In this document: in pieces, positions 5,033 through 41,530 of the stretch | How positions within the stretch are numbered: position 1 is the first letter of the stretch | Layout of the letters: each line of letters begins with the position of its first letter | The notes under the pieces: model-generated | What the model saw: the letters and a program-made list of their open reading frames with translations, nothing else | Databases searched by the model: none | Told to the model about the DNA's origin: nothing | Position numbers and translations under genes: made by a program | DNA from: a virus | Lineage: Duplodnaviria > Heunggongvirae > Uroviricota > Caudoviricetes | Virus record (IMG/VR): IMGVR_UViG_3300027994_000001 | Span: 57,776 to 121,775 of that record | Length of the DNA stretch: 64,000 bases | Strand: one strand, 5' to 3'

Positions 5033-7329
5033 TTATTTTTGTTTTTTAATTTTTATCCGCCGGATTATAAGGAATTTCTTTATAGTAACTAAATCTTCTT
5101 ATACTTTCTTCAACTCCTTCTAACACATTGTTAATAAAGGGCTCAATTTCTTTATCTTCTAAAGTGTTTATGTAACTGGAATATTGATATTTTAATAAAT
5201 TAGTTATTTTTTCCATTAATTCTGTGTCTTTACTCATAATTCACCAAAATTATTTTCATACCAATTATTCAAATCATAAGAATCCTTTTCGTCTTCTAGC
5301 TTACTGTGAATATCTTGGTATTGATCTTTTCTAGCTTGCCAATACCTAATAAATTGTCTGTGACTATGCGTATGACTCCAATCCTGACCATCAAAGTGTT
5401 CGAGTTCAACTTGTTGTAAAGTCCCAAAATCGTCTACAGCAACAAGACAGGTGTATTTACCTTTTATAGAAGGTAAGCTCATTTTTGTGTCTATCCAAAC
5501 CATTATTTTTCTGTTTTAGTTTCTTCTTCGCGGGATTCCTCAATCCAATATAAAGCGTCTTTCCACGCTTTTGCTTCTGTTGCTCCTTCACCTAATCTTC
5601 GACGTTCTTCTCGTAATCTTGAAGACCATATTAAATAATAGTGTTCTTTAGCTAAAGGATTTCTCTTTGTATATTTTTCTGCATAAGCTAGAGCATATAC
5701 TTCTTTTATTTTATCTTTTGCGGCCATATTACTTACTTAATTTATCAAACGCTTCCTCTAAACACTCTTCGAATCCTGCTCCGCCATTATAAAATCTTAA
5801 TTCAAATTCTATAGTTCCGTCAGGTAGTTTATTAGCTTTGATTATATCATCATCGGCATCTAAACTTTCATAATCTAATTTATATAAAGCTTGTCCGTGA
5901 AAGAAGTAATCATGATAATAATTTTCACACAGATATTCAATTTCTGAGCCATCTTCAACTTCTGTGATTTTTCCTTTGTCTTCTAATATTTTTCGCGCAA
6001 TTCCTAGAGGAGTTAAATATGGATCTTCTAATCTTATTGCTTTTCCTCTGTAATGTACTGTTTCGCTCATTTTCTTTTCTTCTTTTTAGATTTTAAATGT
6101 GACATAGGATTTCTGTATTTTCTAAAATTACCATATTCGTCCTGGAAGTCAGGATTAGGAACTAAATATGACTCACTATCAGAGCCTGTTTTTTCAATCA
6201 TTCTTTGCGGTTTATCCATGTTTTTATATATTTATTCTTTTTGCGCCGTGGATTTCTAAGTACTCAATTATCTCATCAATGTCGTCAATTTCATAGTAGT
6301 CATACCATAAAATATAGCCATCATAATTTCGGCCAAAAACAGTTGTAAGTGTGTCTACCCACTTGACTTCAAAGTATTCTCCCGTAAATACGCCATATTT
6401 AGTAAAATTGTAGAAATCTCTAAAATGAGGGGATATTATTGCTATCATTGTTTTATCATTTTAATTATTTCCTCGCCGGATAAATAGTCAAAGCTGGTTT
6501 GCTCATCTCCCAAAAAACAGTGGCTTTTTCCTTTATAATAAGCTACGGATTTTAAAGGATGATCACCTAAATAAAAAGCAATATCTTCTTTACCCTCTAA
6601 CTCATTGTGCCAGCCTAACATGTATACGTCTAGTAGTTCTTTGTCTGTCATAATAATAGTTTTTCTTTAATTTCTTTTATGTAGTATTCCAGGTTGCTTT
6701 TTATTATTTCCCCGCATTTGTCTGAATATTGAAGATAGTACTTGTAATATTCTTCTTCTGTTTCTATCTCCTTGTCGCCGGAAAAAACTAAAGCAAAACG
6801 AGACTTAAAACTATTAATCCCATCTCTTATAAAAATACAATTATCATAATCTTCTTTCTCTTCTAATTCCCACAATACTTTTAAAACAGGCAACATACCA
6901 TAAGACAATAGTAACTTGTGAATATCATTTTCTTTCATCAGCAATTTTTTAAAATAAATATAAACACCAACCATCCCCATCCTTCTTTACCTGTAGCGGC
7001 TAAATAAACTATTCCTGCTACTAAGGCTACATCAACTATACAATCTAAATATTTATTTTTCATTTTCTATTTGTTTTAAAGCTAATTGATAACCAAACTG
7101 TATTGCCATCATTACAGGAGAGTATTTGTCAGTTCCTTCGTATACTTTTGTATAATTAATAATTTCTTGGCCTATTTTTTCTAAATTTATTTCTTGTTCC
7201 ATTACACTTGTATTATTTTAATTATTTTTTCACGTGGTTTTTGTTCCAGTTTTACTTTTTTGGCAATTATTTCTTCTATTTCACAATCTCTGCAATAAAG
7301 AAAATATTTCTGCTTAAAATCTTTTTTTA

Positions 7330-35199: not shown

Positions 35200-35269
35200 T
35201 TTATTTTAACTTGTTCTTGAATTCTTAAACACGTCTGGGTATAACTCCAGAGCCTCTTTTAAATCGTTT

Positions 35270-35632
35270 TCATTTTTCCACAGAAGGCGAGCAGGAACGA
35301 AGGAATGACACGAGGTAAAAGAACACAGAGAACAAACGGAACTCGTCCATATAGAACCAAGTATAATATTTTCTTTCATTCGTGTTTTTAAAGTTTGGAA
35401 TCCACCCTTTATTGTAAAATGCAGCCAACATAGCTTCTTGTTCATAATATTTTACATGTAAAGGGATATTTTTATAGAGTTCATCAAAATCCTTTTCTGT
35501 GGTTTTATGGTACTCGAGTACTTTTTGGAAGCTATTATAAACCTCTCTAAATACAATTCTATCGAAAGTAGATCTTTCTTTATCTATTTCAAATCCTTTT
35601 GGAACTTCAATTTTCAATTCTTGTGTTTTCAT
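35270..35632 (-). CDS. small protein carrying a second, degenerate DGR variable-repeat copy at its C-terminus (candidate secondary or decayed target)
   Basis: C-terminal FRLFSVFFYLVSFLRSCSPSVEK is encoded by VR2. The pre-VR segment KYYTWFYMDEFRL is paralogous to KYFPWWYLGKNFRL in the primary target. Confidence 0.5.
   Translation of the reverse strand: MKTQELKIEVPKGFEIDKERSTFDRIVFREVYNSFQKVLEYHKTTEKDFDELYKNIPLHVKYYEQEAMLAAFYNKGWIPNFKNTNERKYYTWFYMDEFRLFSVFFYLVSFLRSCSPSVEK
35279..35341 (-). repeat. VR2: VR-like repeat diverged from the TR at adenines and carrying two 1-nt insertions
   Basis: Hand-aligned to TR 36662..36722: about 20 substitutions, all at coding-strand TR adenines, plus two single-base insertions. 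It shares the GC-enriched 3' block CTCGCC(T)TCTGTG with VR1. Confidence 0.6.
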
Positions 35633-36584
35633 TTTCGTATTTATTTACTAAGTTTTTACTATTACAGTGGACTAACCAACTCTTATGATTTTTCTTTACT
35701 TTATTTTTAATATATTTTTTCTTAATTGACTTTCTTATCAGAGTATGTGTATGATAATGTTTATATCCCAAAAAATCAATGCTCCGTGCACTTACTGGAA
35801 AAACTTGATAATTTCCTTTTATTTCCAACTTTAGTTGTGTTCTCAGATAGTCTTGGATATTATAAAACCACTCCCATAATTGTTCTTTATTATCTGAAAG
35901 TAAAACCATATCATCACAATATTTGAAATAATATTTTACTTTTAAAACCTCCTTAATCCAATGATCAAAATATGTCAGATAGAAATTTCCAAAAAATTGA
36001 CTTGTGAAATTACCTAATGGAACTCCACTGTGAGAATCTATAATATCGTCTAATAAATATAGCAAATCATTATCTTTAAACTTTCGCCGTAACATTCCTT
36101 TTAATATCTCATTATCTATGTTAGGGAAAAATTTCTTAATGTCTAGTTTAAGGCAGTATTTTGTCCCCTCTGTGTCTTTCAATACCTTTCTTAATTTATA
36201 AGAAGCTTGGTGCACACCTCTTCCCTTCACACAACTATATGTATCAGCGGTAAAAACAGATACAAAAATAGGCTCTAAAATATTTAGTATGGCGTGGTGT
36301 ACAATTCGATCAGGATAGTAAGGCAATTGTGATATTGTTCTTTCTTTTCCATCGGATATTGTAAATACATTATATCTAGACGTTGTAAATTTTTTATCAC
36401 TTAAAGTTTTGTGTAAATTTAAAATATTATCTTCTTCATTCTGTAAATGTTTTATTACTCCGTATTGTTTTAATTTCCCTCTTCTTGCTTTCTTATCTGC
36501 TGACTGTAAGTTTTCAATGTTGATTATTTGCTGGTATAAATTATTGTGTCTTTTCATGCTCTGTGTATATAAACTCACTTTCAA
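35607..36584 (-). CDS. diversity-generating retroelement reverse transcriptase
   Basis: RT motifs LDIKKFFPNID, GVPLGNFTSQFFGNFYL (the DGR-specific [I/L]GxxxSQ in place of the retroviral QGxxxSP), YFKYCDDMVLL (YxDD) and IDFLGYK. About 325 aa, adjacent to a TR/VR pair. Confidence 0.85.
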   Translation of the reverse strand: MKVSLYTQSMKRHNNLYQQIINIENLQSADKKARRGKLKQYGVIKHLQNEEDNILNLHKTLSDKKFTTSRYNVFTISDGKERTISQLPYYPDRIVHHAILNILEPIFVSVFTADTYSCVKGRGVHQASYKLRKVLKDTEGTKYCLKLDIKKFFPNIDNEILKGMLRRKFKDNDLLYLLDDIIDSHSGVPLGNFTSQFFGNFYLTYFDHWIKEVLKVKYYFKYCDDMVLLSDNKEQLWEWFYNIQDYLRTQLKLEIKGNYQVFPVSARSIDFLGYKHYHTHTLIRKSIKKKYIKNKVKKNHKSWLVHCNSKNLVNKYENENTRIEN

Positions 36585-36661
36585 TTACTTTACTAACGAG
36601 TCTTTAAGGCTTTTATTTATTTTTTACCGAGAGGTAAAGTGTTTTTACTTATTTTAAAATC

Positions 36662-36722
36662 TACAGATGTGAGTAGGAACGTTGGAATTATTCGAGTTAT
36701 AGTTCACATTGTTCAAACGGAA
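36662..36722 (-). repeat. DGR template repeat (TR), 61 bp, intergenic between target stop and RT start
   Basis: Coding-strand read TTCCGTTTGAACAATGTGAACTATAACTCGAATAATTCCAACGTTCCTACTCACATCTGTA is rich in AAC/AAT codons. It matches VR1 at 47 of 61 positions; every mismatch is at a TR adenine. Confidence 0.8.
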
Positions 36723-36740
36723 GGGGTAAAAACACTTGTT

Positions 36741-37304
36741 TTAATTCATATAATCTTTCCAAATATCTTTAAACTGAGATGCTGAGTAATTTCCTAATTC
36801 GGAAGATTTGACACAGAGGCGAGAAGGAACGCAGGAACAATCCGAGTAATAGTTCACAGCGCCCAAACGGAAATTCTTACCTAAATACCACCAAGGAAAA
36901 TACTTATATTCGCTGTGATTATCCCAATCAAGTTCAATCCCATTATTTAGAGCCTTAGAAATAACTACAAGTTCTTGGCAAGCTACTACTTTTCTTTCTA
37001 AATTTGGTGTGTTTTTTAACAGCCTTAATTGAAGAACTTCATTATCTATCTCTCCCAACTGTTTACATGCATCCTCAACTGTCTTTATATCCTCCCAAGT
37101 GTCACGTACATCAAAAATCTCTTTAACAATGGGTAACTGCTCCGCTGTACAAGCTGTAATCATCTCGTTAATTTGTTTTTCTGTGAATTTTATTTCCGCG
37201 GAAAATGGATCTTCTGAGCCGAAAGCTTTTATTTTCTTCTTCCAAGAATCACAGGCAATATCGTGTATCTGTTTTAACTCTTCTCTGGTTATACTATTTT
37301 TCAT
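36741..37304 (-). CDS. DGR target protein (187 aa) with variable repeat near its C-terminus
   Basis: VR1 encodes FRLGAVNYYSDCSCVPSRLC, against the TR-encoded FRLNNVNYNSNNSNVPTHIC. The ORF stop lies 19 nt upstream of the TR on the coding strand. Confidence 0.75.
   Translation of the reverse strand: MKNSITREELKQIHDIACDSWKKKIKAFGSEDPFSAEIKFTEKQINEMITACTAEQLPIVKEIFDVRDTWEDIKTVEDACKQLGEIDNEVLQLRLLKNTPNLERKVVACQELVVISKALNNGIELDWDNHSEYKYFPWWYLGKNFRLGAVNYYSDCSCVPSRLCVKSSELGNYSASQFKDIWKDYMN
36812..36872 (-). repeat. DGR variable repeat VR1
   Basis: Ungapped 61-bp alignment to the TR at an offset of +150. 14 mismatches at + coordinates 36812, 18, 20, 24, 32, 33, 38, 39, 42, 48, 59, 60, 62 and 63, all opposite TR T on the + strand (A on the coding strand). 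Confidence 0.8.
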
Positions 37305-37306
37305 AA

Positions 37307-38086
37307 TTATTTATTTAAAATCATTTCTTTAATATCCTGAACATGCTTACTTCCCCATTTTTGCAGAGCGTATCTAGCTTTGGCTTCAATAATTGAAATC
37401 AATGGAACAATTTTATAAGTAAAGCCTTTATACTCCAATAGTTCGTATTTCTGGTTAGGATCGATTCTTACATCAGCTTTAACGCCGTCAATATAGATGC
37501 TTTCATTATAGTCCGAACTTGAAAATCTATCTTCACCGCTTTCAATATCTAATCCATCAGCCTTAAGAATTTGGTAAAACGGTAGAATAAAATCATAATC
37601 CGCTTCTCCGTCTCTGAATCTTTCAAGTCTCACACCTTGTAAATATAAACTGATACTGCCACCTACTATAAGATTAGGATTGCTTTCCTGAAGAGTTTTT
37701 ACAGTTGATAAGTGCATAGCTTCGTCTAGTCTTTCAGATTCTTTGGCTTTTCTAATCTCTTTTAATTCTTTTTCGCCGATTTCTTCTAAAAATTTAATAC
37801 ATCTTGTGGTGTTTTTATGAGTGTCTTCTTTAAATTCACCTAAAATTTCTATTTTAAAAAATCTATTTGAACCATTATTACTGTAATGGTTAAACACTTC
37901 ATCAAGCTCATTCCAATAACTTATAGCTTTACTTGAATCTAATTCTAACTTAGATTTGATTACGTTATATCCTTCTGGTAATTCTTGCGTTTCTCCCTTA
38001 TCGTCAATGTAGTAAGTTTTACCTATTTCAAACTGCACTTTATTGAGCTGCATGTTATTATCTGTTCCTTTAAATCCTAATTTCAT
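37307..38086 (-). CDS. hypothetical protein (259 aa) immediately upstream of the DGR target
   Basis: Long minus-strand ORF with its stop 2 nt from the target's ATG; no recognisable motif. Confidence 0.45.
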   Translation of the reverse strand: MKLGFKGTDNNMQLNKVQFEIGKTYYIDDKGETQELPEGYNVIKSKLELDSSKAISYWNELDEVFNHYSNNGSNRFFKIEILGEFKEDTHKNTTRCIKFLEEIGEKELKEIRKAKESERLDEAMHLSTVKTLQESNPNLIVGGSISLYLQGVRLERFRDGEADYDFILPFYQILKADGLDIESGEDRFSSSDYNESIYIDGVKADVRIDPNQKYELLEYKGFTYKIVPLISIIEAKARYALQKWGSKHVQDIKEMILNK

Positions 38087-38285: not shown

Positions 38286-39209
38286 TTAAAAATTTCCATA
38301 TTCAACCTGAAAAACTTTCAATCCGAGTGCCCTAGCTCTTCTACAAACGGAATTTCTATCGTCTATTAAGGTAAGAATGTAGTTATTTTTCGCTATTTCT
38401 TCCCACAATTCCATTTTTACTATATCATCTGACCTAAAATCTCCTGATTTTCTCATATATAAGGTTATTTCAACATCTTCAAGATCTAATTCTAGATTAT
38501 CTCTTAACCATTTTTCTGTTTCTTCTCTACAACCCTCATCTCGACCCGAACAGAAAATTAATTCTGGCTGGTCTAAAGTCATATACAAATGTGCAAAAAG
38601 CTCTGCTACAGGAAAATCCAGTTTATCTTCTGAGACTTTTTTCCAGTCAAAAGGGCTTCTATTTCCCATATGTGCGAGTGTCCCATCAATGTCAAAAACG
38701 TAGCAAGCTGGTTTTTCTATGTCATTCTCAAATACAATAGGTTCAAAATCTTTTACAGGAATACCTTGTCTTTGCAGTTCCATATATTGATTGTGCTGTC
38801 TTTTTATTACTTCTGCTCCAACACTTCTGTTTCTTTTTGAATCTCTTTCTATTGCTTTTTCCGGCGAAATATCAAAATATTTGTAGCTTATTGGCACATT
38901 CCAATACTGAAACCTATCAAGGAACTCTTTCTTAAGGTGTGTGGCATCCACTAATACAGTTTTATTTTCTGCTAATCCTTCGTGAATTAAAACATCTTCA
39001 TACTTTGTTACCTGTTTTTCTAACTTAGAGATGTCTGGTCTGGAATAGTATTCTTTAATTGACTCTTCTGAGAAAGAAAACATCAATTCTCTGATTTTGT
39101 CCCGATTTACTACCAATACCCCTGTTGGATTTGCTCTCCATTGTTCGTGTGCATACGTCGATTTACCGCTGCCGGATATTCCCACTAAAACTTCTATCTT
39201 TTTACTCAT
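38286..39209 (-). CDS. pnk: polynucleotide 5'-kinase/3'-phosphatase (T4 Pnk-like)
   Basis: N-terminal P-loop GISGSGKST; C-terminal HAD phosphatase motif VFDIDGTLAH (DxDGT) and downstream acidic HAD blocks. Confidence 0.8.
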   Translation of the reverse strand: MSKKIEVLVGISGSGKSTYAHEQWRANPTGVLVVNRDKIRELMFSFSEESIKEYYSRPDISKLEKQVTKYEDVLIHEGLAENKTVLVDATHLKKEFLDRFQYWNVPISYKYFDISPEKAIERDSKRNRSVGAEVIKRQHNQYMELQRQGIPVKDFEPIVFENDIEKPACYVFDIDGTLAHMGNRSPFDWKKVSEDKLDFPVAELFAHLYMTLDQPELIFCSGRDEGCREETEKWLRDNLELDLEDVEITLYMRKSGDFRSDDIVKMELWEEIAKNNYILTLIDDRNSVCRRARALGLKVFQVEYGNF

Positions 39210-39879
39210 AATGAAATTGTCTTGTGTTATTTGCTTGAAGCATTATATTTAATAAATCATCATCTGTTTCTTGGATATAATAATTCTCCAATAAGTGATT
39301 CTGATACATGTCGGAGGCTTTTTGTCTTAGATAACCTTCCATTTCTATGCAATACTTTTTATCCTTTAAATTCAAAGCTATTTTCTGTATTTCTTCTTTT
39401 TTCGGCAAAATATTATCAATCAAACACTCCGCAATATAAAGGCTTCTATTAGCGTGAAATAATTTGTTTTTATTGTTATGTAGTTTTAAATCCCGTTTTG
39501 CAACTCCGCAATATGCTCGAATGAGCTTAAAAGTTCTGCATGTCTTCAAAACTTGCTCTCCAATCCTCTCATTTCCCCCAGTAAACAGTAAAATATCAGA
39601 ATGAATTGTACCATCACCACTCTTTAAATTAGCCCAAAACTGTTCTTCTGAAACCCAAATATATTGAGAGTTGTTTTCTAAGTCATCATATTGAAAACTA
39701 TGAATACTCGGTAAGCCGTTGACCTTTTCTTTAAAAACACTATCGTAATTATATACTCTCATATAATCATAGTCACTGTCTTCCTTGTTTGTACCGAAAA
39801 GCCTTGATCCAAATTCATATTCAATGTATCTGGATTTATTAAGCCGTTCGTGTTGTTCTTTTGTTATTTTTATGTTCAT
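39202..39879 (-). CDS. Pol-beta-superfamily nucleotidyltransferase-domain protein (paralog 1)
   Basis: FGSRLFGTNKEDSDYDYM fits the NTase signature hG[GS]x9-13Dh[DE]h. Confidence 0.5.
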   Translation of the reverse strand: MNIKITKEQHERLNKSRYIEYEFGSRLFGTNKEDSDYDYMRVYNYDSVFKEKVNGLPSIHSFQYDDLENNSQYIWVSEEQFWANLKSGDGTIHSDILLFTGGNERIGEQVLKTCRTFKLIRAYCGVAKRDLKLHNNKNKLFHANRSLYIAECLIDNILPKKEEIQKIALNLKDKKYCIEMEGYLRQKASDMYQNHLLENYYIQETDDDLLNIMLQANNTRQFHYE

Positions 39880-40541
39880 ATCAATAATTTTAGTTCCTCT
39901 AATAAGTCAGTGTTAAAACAGTTGTGTTTTTCAAGAATTTCTTTTATACTTCTTAACTTTTCTGTTTGTTTTTCTATCGGGTTTAGCTTTTTAAACTCCG
40001 TGGCCTTACTATTAAACAAAGTCCTATACTTATCATTTATTTTATCCCACAATTCTTGCCTGTCATGATAAGCTGATAATTTATATAAGTCTCTTAGCAG
40101 CCAATTCATATTTGAATAATCAAGTATCTTACCTTCTCTCATAATTTGAATTGCAAAATCTAATATCCTAATAGAATGAAATATAGATTTAAGTGCAATA
40201 TCTAAGTCATAATCTCCGATAACAATAAGTTTCTTTTTTCCTTTAACCCAACTATTTGATGTTAACATTGATATATTTCGTCTAAAGGATTCTTTATTTA
40301 TATCAACTGTTGGGAATTCCCACTTATAAACTTCAAAGGTACTCTTATCTGCAAAATAAACTTCTAAACAAGCAATATCTCCGTTTTTAACAGCCGTTAT
40401 AAAAGATTCTTTAGTAAAACAGTGAATATTTACATCTTCTATTTTTTCTAGTTCGTCTTGTATCACAATATAATCATGATCAGATTTTTCTGAATGGCTT
40501 CCGTACAGTCTACTACCAAATAAGCATTTGTTTAAAATCAT
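39876..40541 (-). CDS. Pol-beta-superfamily nucleotidyltransferase-domain protein (paralog 2)
   Basis: FGSRLYGSHSEKSDHDYIV is the same signature; similar length and a 4-nt overlap with paralog 1. Confidence 0.5.
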   Translation of the reverse strand: MILNKCLFGSRLYGSHSEKSDHDYIVIQDELEKIEDVNIHCFTKESFITAVKNGDIACLEVYFADKSTFEVYKWEFPTVDINKESFRRNISMLTSNSWVKGKKKLIVIGDYDLDIALKSIFHSIRILDFAIQIMREGKILDYSNMNWLLRDLYKLSAYHDRQELWDKINDKYRTLFNSKATEFKKLNPIEKQTEKLRSIKEILEKHNCFNTDLLEELKLLI

Positions 40542-41530
40542 AATCTTTCAAATTTAGGTTTAATAGCCTTCCAAATTACTTGGGAATAGTCTTTATCATT
40601 ATACATATTGAATAAAATTCCTGACAAAGAGTACTTTAAAGCATCTAAAGCAAACTGTTTTTTATCTGTTGTATTAATTATTTTAAATACATATTTATAT
40701 TGGGCTTCTATTAAAAGATACTCTGACCACAACTTTTCAACAAATTCATCGACTTTATTATAAAATTCATCTGGAACTCCTTCTAAAATACTCATGATAT
40801 CATCACCGTTCTTTAAACATTCCCAAACAGAGGTTGTAGATACAGCTGTCATAATTCTGTGCAATCTCAAATACTCGTCACCTTTTATTTTACATCTTTC
40901 TCCATTATAAAACCTTACAACATATCCTTCTTCTGTTTCTTTTATTTCTTTGTTTAATTCTTTTAGTGGCGTTTTTGAATCAAAATTTTTTACTTTGTTA
41001 GGAAAATGAACCTCTTCTAAACTTTTTTCCACACCGGACTCAGTTTCAAATACTCCTGTTAAAATAACTCCTTCAAACTCCCCATAATCACATACAATTC
41101 TGTTGTTTTTATAGATTATCTCAAAACAATATGTATACTCTTTACTGAATTCACTGTAATCAGAAATAGCTTCTAAAAATTCTCTACCTTTAAGAGCTTG
41201 ATCAGATGTAAATGAACCGCGGGAAGCAAAAACCCAAGAATCATCATAATAGAATAAAATACCTAATGAACCATCAAGCTTCTCGTAAATATCATATTTA
41301 TCACATATATTAGTCTTACCCTCTGATAGATTAAAAAACTTCTTGAAAGGCTTAGCTACTACATTTCCTTTATCATCTGTTACAAGTCCTCTGCACATCA
41401 TTATGATATCGTTCCACAAGCTTTCATATTGAACTTTATCTGAATAGTTCCATATAAGTAATGGGAGTGTTGGGTGCTTCTGTTTGAAAACTAAACCTTT
41501 TTTTTCGTATTTTAACAGTATGTCTAACAT
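40538..41530 (-). CDS. ATP-dependent RNA ligase, Rnl1-like
   Basis: Nucleotidyltransferase motif I KxDG present as YEKLDGSLGILFY, resembling T4 Rnl1 KEDGSL; about 330 aa, adjacent to the pnk block. Confidence 0.65.
   Translation of the reverse strand: MLDILLKYEKKGLVFKQKHPTLPLLIWNYSDKVQYESLWNDIIMMCRGLVTDDKGNVVAKPFKKFFNLSEGKTNICDKYDIYEKLDGSLGILFYYDDSWVFASRGSFTSDQALKGREFLEAISDYSEFSKEYTYCFEIIYKNNRIVCDYGEFEGVILTGVFETESGVEKSLEEVHFPNKVKNFDSKTPLKELNKEIKETEEGYVVRFYNGERCKIKGDEYLRLHRIMTAVSTTSVWECLKNGDDIMSILEGVPDEFYNKVDEFVEKLWSEYLLIEAQYKYVFKIINTTDKKQFALDALKYSLSGILFNMYNDKDYSQVIWKAIKPKFERL

What the first reader, a model, noticed from the sequence alone, without database searches (positions are those of the whole stretch)
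35607..36740. No avd-like accessory gene and only a 61-bp TR: minimal DGR architecture
Canonical DGRs place a roughly 120-aa basic four-helix-bundle Avd between target and TR. Here the target stop (36741) is only 19 nt from the TR and the TR only 78 nt from the RT start, leaving no room. The TR is also short, where 100-150 bp is more usual. The nearest small ORFs (35270..35632, which carries VR2, and 37307..38086 at 259 aa) do not look Avd-like. This bears on how the RT finds its template in this element.
Basis: inference. Interest (0 to 1): 0.55.

Follow-up and report, generated by a model that had tools for sequence, protein, structure and literature searches.

The report
Avd-less phage DGR, structured template RNA
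This phage hypermutation cassette (a diversity-generating retroelement) really does lack the usual helper protein Avd and has a short template, but that layout is an already described class, and the template is flanked by a conserved RNA scaffold that most likely recruits the reverse transcriptase on its own.

Summary
On the minus strand lie target gene 1 (37304..36741, VR1 36872..36813), a 60-nt TR (36722..36663), a reverse transcriptase and a second, frameshifted target (VR2 35341..35285). No Avd-like gene was found next to the cassette, among 117 ORFs of the 64-kb window, or around relatives.

Two corrections. The RT starts at ATG 36557, not TTG 36584, so the TR-RT spacer is 105 nt, not 78. 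A TR of 55-65 nt is the norm in this roughly 140-kb phage family.

The architecture is not new. Wu et al. 2018 found 29% of DGRs without accessory genes and noted that lineage 3 (target-TR-RT) lacks avd. A crAss-like phage DGR from that lineage is among this RT's nearest database hits.

The added result concerns the spacer, which is a conserved structured RNA. A 12-bp duplex brackets the TR. It is followed by a short hairpin, an A-rich single strand and a hairpin with a sarcin-ricin-type loop. This RNA resembles Rfam RT-17 and mirrors the bRT-contacting parts of the Bordetella DGR RNA. Only 14 nt separate the TR from the duplex, so there is no room for the Avd-binding hairpin.

Verdict: a real, ordinary member of a known Avd-independent DGR class.

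The parts
36741..37304 (-). DGR target gene 1 (187 aa), with VR1 near its C-terminus
   Evidence: ORF. It hits phrog_11581 at 2.6e-23. Fifty-five homologues, nearly all 187 aa, are hypervariable exactly over the VR.
36813..36872 (-). VR1, variable repeat
   Evidence: 78% identical to the TR. All 13 mismatches are at TR adenines.
36726..36737 (-). 5' strand (AAGUGUUUUUAC) of the 12-bp duplex that brackets the TR, analogous to the 'cPRT Stop' duplex of BPP-1
   Evidence: Seen in the MFE fold. Compensatory changes occur in relatives. Own-locus pairing beats cross-locus pairing (19.7 vs 12.5).
36663..36722 (-). TR, template repeat: 60 nt, 18 adenines, 7 AAY codons
36649..36662 (-). 14-nt AU-rich, unstructured, poorly conserved linker. 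It occupies the place where BPP-1 carries the 31-nt Avd-binding stem-loop and the primer strand.
   Evidence: Handa et al. bioRxiv 10.1101/2023.10.23.563531
36637..36648 (-). 3' strand (GUAAAAACACUU) of the TR-bracketing duplex
36625..36636 (-). SL1, a short hairpin (UACC-UCUC-GGUA) directly after the duplex
   Evidence: Helix 1 of the covariance-model alignment has 4 of 5 pairs with compensatory changes. It aligns to the first hairpin of Rfam RT-17 and RT-18.
36602..36624 (-). A-rich single-stranded segment; the first five adenines after SL1 are invariant
36572..36601 (-). SL2, a hairpin with a UAGUA/GAAA (sarcin-ricin-type) internal loop and a GNRA-like cap
   Evidence: Helices 2 and 3 show 7 of 8 pairs with compensatory changes. 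It aligns to Rfam RT-17/18/14. The loop type is taken from PMC13085918.
36558..36571 (-). Conserved tail ending in ACAGAG(C), immediately before the RT start. It may pair with the TR 3' end (UCUGU, 36667..36663).
   Evidence: suggestive; not supported across the whole clade
35607..36557 (-). DGR reverse transcriptase, 316 aa from ATG 36557. It carries LGNFTSQ and YCDD motifs.
   Evidence: Pfam RVT_1 at 1.5e-16; phrog_1423 at 1e-108; bRT (PDB 8ub7) at E 2.9e-48 over residues 2-287
35206..35632 (-). DGR target gene 2. It is disrupted by a 1-nt insertion in VR2, so the ORF as read is 35270..35632 (120 aa). The repaired reading is 141 aa.
   Evidence: Relatives carry intact ORFs of 134-143 aa overlapping the RT stop; L091's is 111 aa and unlike the others in sequence.
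35285..35341 (-). VR2; the extra base is at 35314/35315

Best explanation
This is an Avd-independent diversity-generating retroelement of the 'target-TR-RT' type. That corresponds to Architecture A of Wu et al. 2018, and most probably to their lineage 3. It sits in a roughly 140-kb, AT-rich phage that probably infects Bacteroidota. The cassette diversifies one small protein (187 aa) and formerly a second (141 aa, now frameshifted) by adenine-specific mutagenic retrohoming.

The RT finds its template through a cis RNA scaffold transcribed with the TR. A 12-bp duplex forms between sequences just upstream and 14 nt downstream of the TR and loops the TR out. It is followed by a short hairpin, an A-rich single strand and a hairpin with a sarcin-ricin-type internal loop.

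These elements match, in order and kind, the parts of the Bordetella phage DGR RNA that contact bRT: the cPRT Stop duplex, its stem-loop, the A-minor adenosines and Thumb Ring, and the bRT-binding stem. The element that binds Avd in Bordetella, a stem-loop directly 3' of the TR, is missing.

Shown here: the anatomy, the A-only TR/VR differences, the absence of detectable Avd, and the conservation and covariation of the RNA helices.

Inferred: that the RNA binds the RT, that cDNA synthesis stops at the bracketing duplex, and that no protein cofactor is needed. The priming site is unknown.
For: DGR identity. The TR/VR1 mismatches are 13 of 13 at adenines (P 1.7e-9). VR2 shows 16 adenine changes and no others. 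The RT is homologous to bRT at E 2.9e-48 and has the LGxxxSQ and YxDD motifs.

No Avd. See, with positive controls. No Avd Pfam family is recorded for any called gene within 3-6 kb in eight relatives. None appears among 150 ORFs flanking about 35 further related loci.

Conserved cassette. In seven of eight relatives on contigs up to 156 kb a 187-188-aa target is followed by about 180 nt, an RT of 311-314 aa and a 134-143-aa ORF that overlaps the RT stop; in six of these that ORF carries a second VR matching the TR, while L084 was not scanned for VRs. The eighth, L091, has a 153-aa upstream target, a 317-aa RT and a 111-aa downstream ORF in which no VR was found.

RNA. The window matches Rfam RT-17 at 30.3 bits, full length, E 7e-4. 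Relatives L090, L013 and L015 pass the RT-17 gathering score. My covariance model hits once upstream of the RT in all 77 loci, at 35-94 bits; one locus, L009, has a second hit downstream of the RT. In that alignment 91.8% of cells pair against 70.8% when shuffled; the covariation score is 0.648 against 0.221, and 0.16 or less when partners are slid.

TR-bracketing duplex. Within the family, 90.7% of cells pair against 49% or less when slid, and 9 pairs have compensatory changes. Across the clade the own-locus score is 19.7 against 12.5 for cross-locus pairs, the median fraction of cross pairs reaching the own score is 0.02, and there are 45 distinct 3'-strand 8-mers.

Linker. The distance from the TR to the 3' strand is -2 to 23 nt in all loci except two crAss-like phages. 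In BPP-1 this stretch is 58 nt and includes the Avd-binding hairpin.

Literature. Wu et al. 2018 state that lineage 3 lacks avd, and a profile search found no avd elsewhere in those genomes. The crAss LMMB DGR belongs to lineage 3 and has no avd. Its RT is 43% identical to this one.
Against: Only 64 kb of a 138.6-kb contig could be searched, so an Avd gene elsewhere in the phage or in the host is not excluded. Avd proteins are poorly conserved, so profile searches can miss them.

The window RNA is below the RT-17 gathering score (30.3 vs 40.4 bits), and single-sequence folding is not better than shuffles (z -0.13 and +0.34).

No biochemical data exist for any Avd-less DGR, so RT binding by this RNA is an analogy with BPP-1.

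Lineage-3 membership was not tested by phylogeny.

One of the two targets is frameshifted, which could signal decay.
Confidence: 0.8

Rival explanations
1. The DGR does use an Avd. It is encoded in trans, either in the 74 kb of the phage genome outside the window or in the host chromosome.
For: Only part of the contig was available (contig length 138,623). Avd families are poorly conserved (Wu et al.). One unlocated window ORF gives a weak PaREP1 hit (E 0.0034); I recall this as a helical-bundle family, but that rests on memory and was not checked here.
Against: There is no hit to either Avd Pfam family in the 117 window ORFs or around relatives. Wu et al. searched genomes of Avd-less DGRs with a profile and found none. 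The RNA leaves only 14 nt where the Avd-binding hairpin lies in BPP-1, and this short linker holds across the clade.
Confidence: 0.08
2. A protein unrelated to Avd replaces it. Candidates are a neighbouring gene product, such as the RNase_T-type 3'-5' exonuclease downstream, or a host factor.
For: An RNase_T exonuclease follows the cassette in the window and in 4 of 8 relatives. The sister clade has a conserved ORF of about 98 aa overlapping the RT stop.
Against: Flanking genes differ among relatives: AAA ATPase, HNH and DNA_pol_B_exo2 in L086, L087 and L090, and none in L091. The 98-aa ORF has no homologue in the window. The exonucleases are part of a replication module and are found in DGR-free Flavobacterium phages.
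Confidence: 0.1
3. The cassette is a decaying, inactive DGR, and its minimal appearance reflects loss of parts, including Avd.
For: Target 2 is frameshifted inside VR2. The 3' constant part of the TR/VR is only 5 nt, against the 20-40 bp reported as typical by Wu et al..
Against: The RT ORF is intact with its catalytic motifs. Target 1 is intact. The RNA scaffold is conserved, and the same Avd-less layout with two intact targets occurs in at least six relatives sharing 70-79% RT identity. VR positions are hypervariable among homologues.
Confidence: 0.07

Closest known systems
Architecture A / lineage 3 DGRs (Wu et al. 2018, NAR 46:11; PMC5758913), for example the crAss-like phage LMMB DGR (Morozova et al. 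2020; PMC7290462)
   Same: The gene order is target-VR, TR, RT. There is no avd or other accessory gene. The hosts are Bacteroidota-associated phages. The RT is 43-55% identical to crAss-like phage RTs. The same spacer RNA core is present in cr52_1, LMMB and Perkons.
   Different: The TR is shorter (60 nt vs 90-104 in the crAss-like phages). The targets are small proteins (187 and 141 aa) in a non-structural gene region, rather than tail fibre proteins of 400-490 aa. A second target lies downstream of the RT. The TR-to-duplex linker is 14 nt, against 44-47 nt in the crAss-like phages.
Bordetella phage BPP-1 DGR (mtd-avd-TR-brt) and its DGR RNA (Rfam RF03022 Phage_DGR, formerly RT-10; Handa et al. 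bioRxiv 10.1101/2023.10.23.563531)
   Same: The RT is homologous (E 2.9e-48). TR/VR differences are adenine-specific. The TR is bracketed by a long-range duplex of 11-12 bp. A short hairpin follows, then adenosines and a single strand, then a long hairpin with a sarcin-ricin-like internal loop just before the RT gene.
   Different: There is no avd gene. There is no Avd-binding stem-loop (Sp3-33). No primer strand is recognisable between the TR and the duplex. The spacer is 105 nt rather than 144, and the TR is 60 nt rather than 134. The window gives no Rfam hit to RF03022.
Rfam RT-17 RNA (RF03020), with RT-18 and RT-14 (Weinberg et al. 2017; PMC5737381)
   Same: The window aligns full-length to RT-17 (model positions 1-95), with both hairpins and the UAGUA/GAAA loop. 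Relatives pass the gathering score. The motif lies immediately upstream of an RT gene.
   Different: The window scores 30.3 bits, below the 40.4 gathering score. The Rfam model does not include the long-range duplex that brackets the TR. Weinberg et al. only speculated that RT motifs other than RT-10 belong to DGRs.

Membership tests
Diversity-generating retroelement (DGR) | TR/VR repeat pair whose differences are confined to TR adenines | tested here: met
   VR1 has 13 of 13 mismatches at adenines. VR2 has 16 adenine changes and no others over 56 nt.
Diversity-generating retroelement (DGR) | DGR-type reverse transcriptase adjacent to the TR (bRT homology, [ILV]GxxxSQ and YxDD motifs) | tested here: met
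   bRT 8ub7 at E 2.9e-48; PLGNFTSQ aligned to PIGSLTSQ; YCDD aligned to YMDD.
Diversity-generating retroelement (DGR) | VR at the 3' end of a protein-coding target gene | tested here: met
   VR1 encodes residues 145-164 of the 187-aa target. VR2 is near the C-terminus of target 2.
Canonical (Architecture B, BPP-1-like) DGR | avd gene in the cassette | tested here: not met
   No PF05635, PF22296 or phrog_3206 hit. The intergenic gaps of 18 and 105 nt leave no room for a gene.
Canonical (Architecture B, BPP-1-like) DGR | Avd-binding stem-loop directly 3' of the TR | tested here: not met
   The linker is 14 nt and unstructured. Linkers are short in 74 of 77 loci.
Architecture A / lineage 3 DGR (Wu et al. 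2018) | No accessory gene; order target-TR-RT | tested here: met
Architecture A / lineage 3 DGR (Wu et al. 2018) | RT falls in the lineage-3 clade of the RT tree | tested here: inconclusive
   The support is indirect only. The nearest phage RTs are from crAss-like phages, including LMMB, which Morozova et al. placed in lineage 3. No tree with the Wu et al. reference set was built.
Architecture A / lineage 3 DGR (Wu et al. 2018) | CLec3-class VR on a C-type lectin fold | tested here: inconclusive
Rfam RT-17 RNA (RF03020) | Score at or above the curated gathering threshold (40.4 bits) | tested here: not met
   The window scores 30.3 bits. Relatives L090, L013 and L015 score 43-44 bits.
Rfam RT-17 RNA (RF03020) | Two hairpins with a UAGUA/GAAA internal loop upstream of an RT gene, supported by covariation | tested here: met

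The most novel reading that the evidence does not exclude
In this Avd-less clade the DGR RNA may be a rearranged version of the Bordetella one. Having lost the Avd-binding hairpin, it would place the priming strand at the 3' end of the spacer. That strand is the conserved ACAGA-G immediately before the RT start codon, and it would pair with the TR 3' end (UCUGU). The result would be a pseudoknot with the TR-bracketing duplex, in which an adenosine followed by G primes cDNA synthesis as A56-G57 do in BPP-1.

If so, a 316-aa RT plus a 190-nt RNA would be a complete, protein-cofactor-free targeted mutagenesis engine.
Probability: 0.2. Interest if true: 0.6.

Novelty: new member of a known kind. 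Interest (0 to 1): 0.3.

Why it matters
Avd-independent retrohoming was inferred from genomics in 2018, and I found no report of it being tested biochemically. All mechanistic and structural work found here, and the one engineering study read, use the Bordetella bRT-Avd pair.

This cassette and its relatives define a very compact candidate system: a 316-aa RT, a 60-nt TR and about 130 nt of flanking RNA. The conserved RNA elements are now mapped, so the question 'what replaces Avd?' can be tested directly. As a genome-scan finding, however, the absence of Avd is expected for this RT clade and would not surprise a specialist.

Tried and rejected
1. Single-sequence folding of the TR-spacer region gave energies no better than shuffles. 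It was useful only as a lead to the bracketing duplex.

2. RNAalifold on the raw MAFFT alignment missed the long-range duplex, because gaps were placed inconsistently. The duplex was confirmed by explicit pair counting and by own-locus versus cross-locus scoring.

3. I tested pairing between the TR 3' end and the conserved tail as a template:primer duplex. Some classes are attractive: UCUGU:ACAGA in the window family, UUUGUGU:ACACAAA in Perkons, UACUUUA:UAAAGUA in L009, and UUGUCA:UGACAA in L027. In a constrained-window test, however, own pairs were no better than cross pairs overall (mean fraction 0.51; 10.5 vs 9.5 for shuffles). The main clade also has an alternative pairing with GCAUG of the start codon. 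I keep this only as a hypothesis.

4. My ungapped duplex finder picked a different pairing in GC-rich BPP-1 than the one seen by cryo-EM. Its single-locus calls should therefore not be over-read.

6. The 259-aa DUF7666 ORF was considered as an accessory protein. It was rejected because it is not conserved next to the cassette in relatives.

7. The weak PaREP1 hit among the window ORFs was not located. It was not among the ten most helical or most basic candidates.

8. No close whole-genome relative was found in the phage collection.
Full report
**Anatomy**

All genes in the window lie on the minus strand. In transcription order the region holds:
- a 259-aa ORF (38086..37307; Pfam DUF7666, phrog_33731);
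- target gene 1 (37304..36741, 187 aa);
- an 18-nt gap;
- the TR (36722..36663);
- a 105-nt spacer;
- the reverse transcriptase (36557..35607);
- overlapping the RT's end, a 120-aa ORF (35632..35270) that carries VR2.

The repeat finder recovers TR 36663-36722 and VR1 36813-36872 at 78% identity, and recovers VR2 in two blocks offset by one base. On the minus strand the TR has 18 adenines. VR1 differs from it at 13 positions, all adenines. The probability of that by chance is 1.7e-9. The TR reads FRLNNVNYNSNNSNVPTHIC and contains seven AAY codons, the usual DGR design.

The RT matches Pfam RVT_1, matches phrog_1423 at 1e-108 and matches the Bordetella bRT structure 8ub7 at E 2.9e-48. The LGNFTSQ and YCDD motifs are aligned. 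This is a genuine DGR.

The RT ORF was taken from a TTG at 36584. The alignment to bRT starts at residue 2 of MKRHNN. All relatives start at the homologous ATG directly after ACAGAG. The stretch between TTG and ATG belongs to a conserved RNA motif. The start is therefore ATG 36557, and the spacer is 105 nt, not 78.

The 120-aa ORF is not just 'a small ORF that carries VR2'. Removing one C (a G on the plus strand at 35314/35315) restores a 141-aa protein. Its C-terminus...ARLLWKNENDLKEALELYPDVFKNSRTS, matches the intact 142-aa proteins of two relatives, L085 and L086. VR2 then shows 16 of 18 adenines changed and no other change over 56 nt. The window copy of target 2 is thus frameshifted, either truly or through an assembly error.

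**Is there an Avd?**

Every test was negative:
- Pfam and PHROGs scans of 20 ORFs within about 6 kb found none.
- A Pfam scan of all 117 minus-strand ORFs of 65-230 aa in the 64-kb window at E<=0.01 returned 24 families, the complete list. Neither PF05635 nor PF22296 (bAvd) is among them.
- Ten of the more helical or basic ORFs, scanned at E<=5, gave nothing Avd-like.
- phmmer with BPP-1 Avd against all six-frame ORFs found nothing at E<=10.
- As controls, BPP-1 Avd hits PF22296 at 7e-36 and phrog_3206 at 9e-29.

**Relatives**

The RT family is very large: more than 7,400 proteins at E<=1e-30. Eight relatives with 62-88% RT identity were examined. They carry these RTs on contigs of up to 156 kb, though four of the loci were read from shorter contigs of 14-40 kb.

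In seven of the eight the cassette is a 187-188-aa target, about 180 nt, an RT of 311-314 aa and a 134-143-aa ORF that overlaps the RT stop. In six of these that ORF carries a second VR matching the TR; L084 was not scanned for VRs. The most distant relative, L091, has a 153-aa upstream target, a 317-aa RT and a 111-aa downstream ORF in which no VR was found, and which does not resemble the others. The genes on either side differ from one relative to another, and no Avd family is recorded for any of them. The 259-aa ORF is absent from this position in all eight.

In a further ~35 related viral contigs, 150 flanking ORFs gave no Avd family. In the annotated phage collection the nearest RTs belong to crAss-like phages (43-55% identity) and to Psychrobacillus phage Perkons. 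There too the annotation shows a target, an intergenic gap and an RT, with nothing in between.

**Literature**

Wu et al. 2018 (PMC5758913) found avd in 74% of 372 DGRs. They defined Architecture A, with no accessory gene, in 29%. [quoted passage not shown] They also searched the genomes for avd elsewhere, without success, and proposed Avd-independent homing. They give the mutagenised part of TRs as about 30-100 bp.

Morozova et al. 2020 (PMC7290462) described exactly this TG-VR-TR-RT layout without avd in crAss-like phage LMMB and placed it in lineage 3. The absence of Avd is therefore real, but it is a known and common state.

TR length is a family trait:
- 55-65 nt in the window's family;
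- about 70-90 nt in most of the ~60%-identity clade;
- 90-104 nt in the crAss-like phages;
- 137 nt in Perkons.

**How the RT may find its template**

Folding the single sequence is not informative (z -0.13 and +0.34). The MFE fold did, however, show a perfect 12-bp helix enclosing the TR: AAGUGUUUUUAC (36737..36726) paired with GUAAAAACACUU (36648..36637).

Relatives keep this helix through compensatory changes, UUUAC/GUAAA to UCUGC/GCAGA to UCUAG/CUAGA. Explicit counting on nine family sequences gives 90.7% paired cells against 49% or less for slid partners, with nine pairs showing compensatory changes. Across 77 loci each locus's own strands pair far better than strands from other loci. The scores are 19.7 against 12.5, the median fraction of cross pairs reaching the own score is 0.02, and there are 45 different 8-mers.

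Downstream of the helix, Rfam matches RT-17 (30.3 bits, full length), RT-18 and weakly RT-14. Relatives L090, L013 and L015 exceed the RT-17 gathering score.

A covariance model of this core (short hairpin, A-rich strand, hairpin with a UAGUA/GAAA loop, and tail) hits once directly upstream of the RT in all 77 loci; one locus, L009, has a second hit downstream of its RT. Covariation is strong: 91.8% paired against 70.8% when shuffled, and a score of 0.648 against 0.221. In 75 of the 76 RT-upstream cases a TR with one to three adenine-variant VRs was detected just 5' of the motif. In the remaining locus, L033, the sequence held starts too close to the motif for a VR to be present.

**Comparison with the Bordetella RNP**

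Weinberg et al. 2017 linked only RT-10 to a DGR and speculated about the other RT motifs. RT-10 is now Rfam 'Phage_DGR' and matches the BPP-1 spacer at 104.7 bits. RT-10, -14, -16, -17, -18 and -19 share a sarcin-ricin loop (PMC13085918).

The cryo-EM study of bRT-Avd-RNA (bioRxiv 10.1101/2023.10.23.563531) describes the following, in 5' to 3' order:
1. an upstream strand;
2. the TR;
3. an Avd-binding stem-loop (Sp3-33);
4. the primer strand (Sp47-56, with A56 priming);
5. the 3' strand of the 'cPRT Stop' duplex (Sp59-70);
6. a short stem-loop;
7. A-minor adenosines;
8. a single-stranded Thumb Ring;
9. a long bRT-binding stem.

The window has elements 1, 2 and 5-9 in the same order. Between the TR and the duplex there are only 14 unstructured, poorly conserved nucleotides. 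The RNA element that holds Avd is therefore absent, along with the gene. This is independent support for Avd-independence. That study surveyed RNA elements only in DGRs that have Avd.

**What remains open**

The primer is unknown. The conserved tail ACAGA-G before the start codon can pair with the TR 3' end (UCUGU), and several other classes show matching changes. A constrained own-versus-cross test was negative over the whole clade. I rate this at about 0.2.

The target proteins form a narrow family of small proteins, with smaller homologues of 125-152 aa in the sister clade. The AF2 model of target 1 is confident (pLDDT 88.5) and mostly helical, with the VR in a loop. It has no lectin-like or other significant match. 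I could neither confirm nor exclude a C-type lectin scaffold.

**Verdict**

The finding is correct in substance and ordinary in kind. This is a new member of the known Avd-less, target-TR-RT class of DGRs. The useful addition is a map of its conserved template-flanking RNA.

Noticed in passing
window 35206-35632 (extra base at 35314/35315): The second DGR target is frameshifted by a single extra base inside VR2. Removing it restores a 141-aa protein that matches relatives. It could be a real pseudogene, an RT or homing indel, or an assembly error.
   Followed up: yes
window 37307-38086: A 259-aa ORF (Pfam DUF7666 at the N-terminus, phrog_33731 full length) sits directly upstream of target 1 only in this genome. 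The eight relatives examined have unrelated small ORFs at that position.
   Followed up: partly
window 36741-37304; L013:3943-4790: The DGR targets of this RT clade are small proteins (125-190 aa) that share a C-terminal motif (ALN.GW..DW....KY.PW...(VR)..SRLC.K). In the window they lie among replication and RNA-repair genes rather than tail genes. The AF2 model is mostly helical with no C-type lectin match, so this may be an undescribed VR scaffold.
   Followed up: partly
window 38286-41530: An RNA-repair-like cluster lies just upstream of the DGR: polynucleotide kinase-phosphatase (38286-39209), two Pol-beta/RlaP-like nucleotidyltransferases (39202-40541) and a 330-aa ORF (40538-41530). A HAD_SAK_2 'Swiss Army Knife RNA repair' hit occurs elsewhere in the window.
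   Followed up: no
L009 (IMGVR_UViG_3300020037_000721) 5631-5973: A second complete VR-TR-RNA-motif module lies downstream of the RT (VR 5631-5702, TR 5799-5870, motif 5877-5973). This is either a tandem DGR or one RT serving two templates.
   Followed up: no
L013:5947-6243 and the same position in at least 14 other loci: In the sister clade (about 60% RT identity, Bacteroidota prophage-like contigs) a conserved ORF of about 98 aa overlaps the RT stop codon. It has no Pfam hit and no homologue in the window. It is a possible clade-specific accessory gene.
   Followed up: partly
window, unidentified ORF of 65-230 aa: One ORF gives a weak Pfam PaREP1 hit (PF05942, E 0.0034). It was not among the ten most helical or basic candidates.
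   Followed up: partly
L001 (cr52_1) and L003 (crAss LMMB): In the two crAss-like phages the linker between the TR and the 3' strand of the bracketing duplex is 44-47 nt, against 23 nt or less elsewhere. That is long enough to hold an extra RNA element, although these DGRs also lack avd.
   Followed up: no
whole window 1-64000: Nearly all ORFs of 90 aa or more run on the minus strand. The source contig is 138.6 kb. Relatives with the same DGR carry it on contigs of up to 156 kb, with no close relative among deposited phage genomes. The nearest nucleotide matches outside the RT are Flavobacterium phage exonuclease genes.
   Followed up: partly
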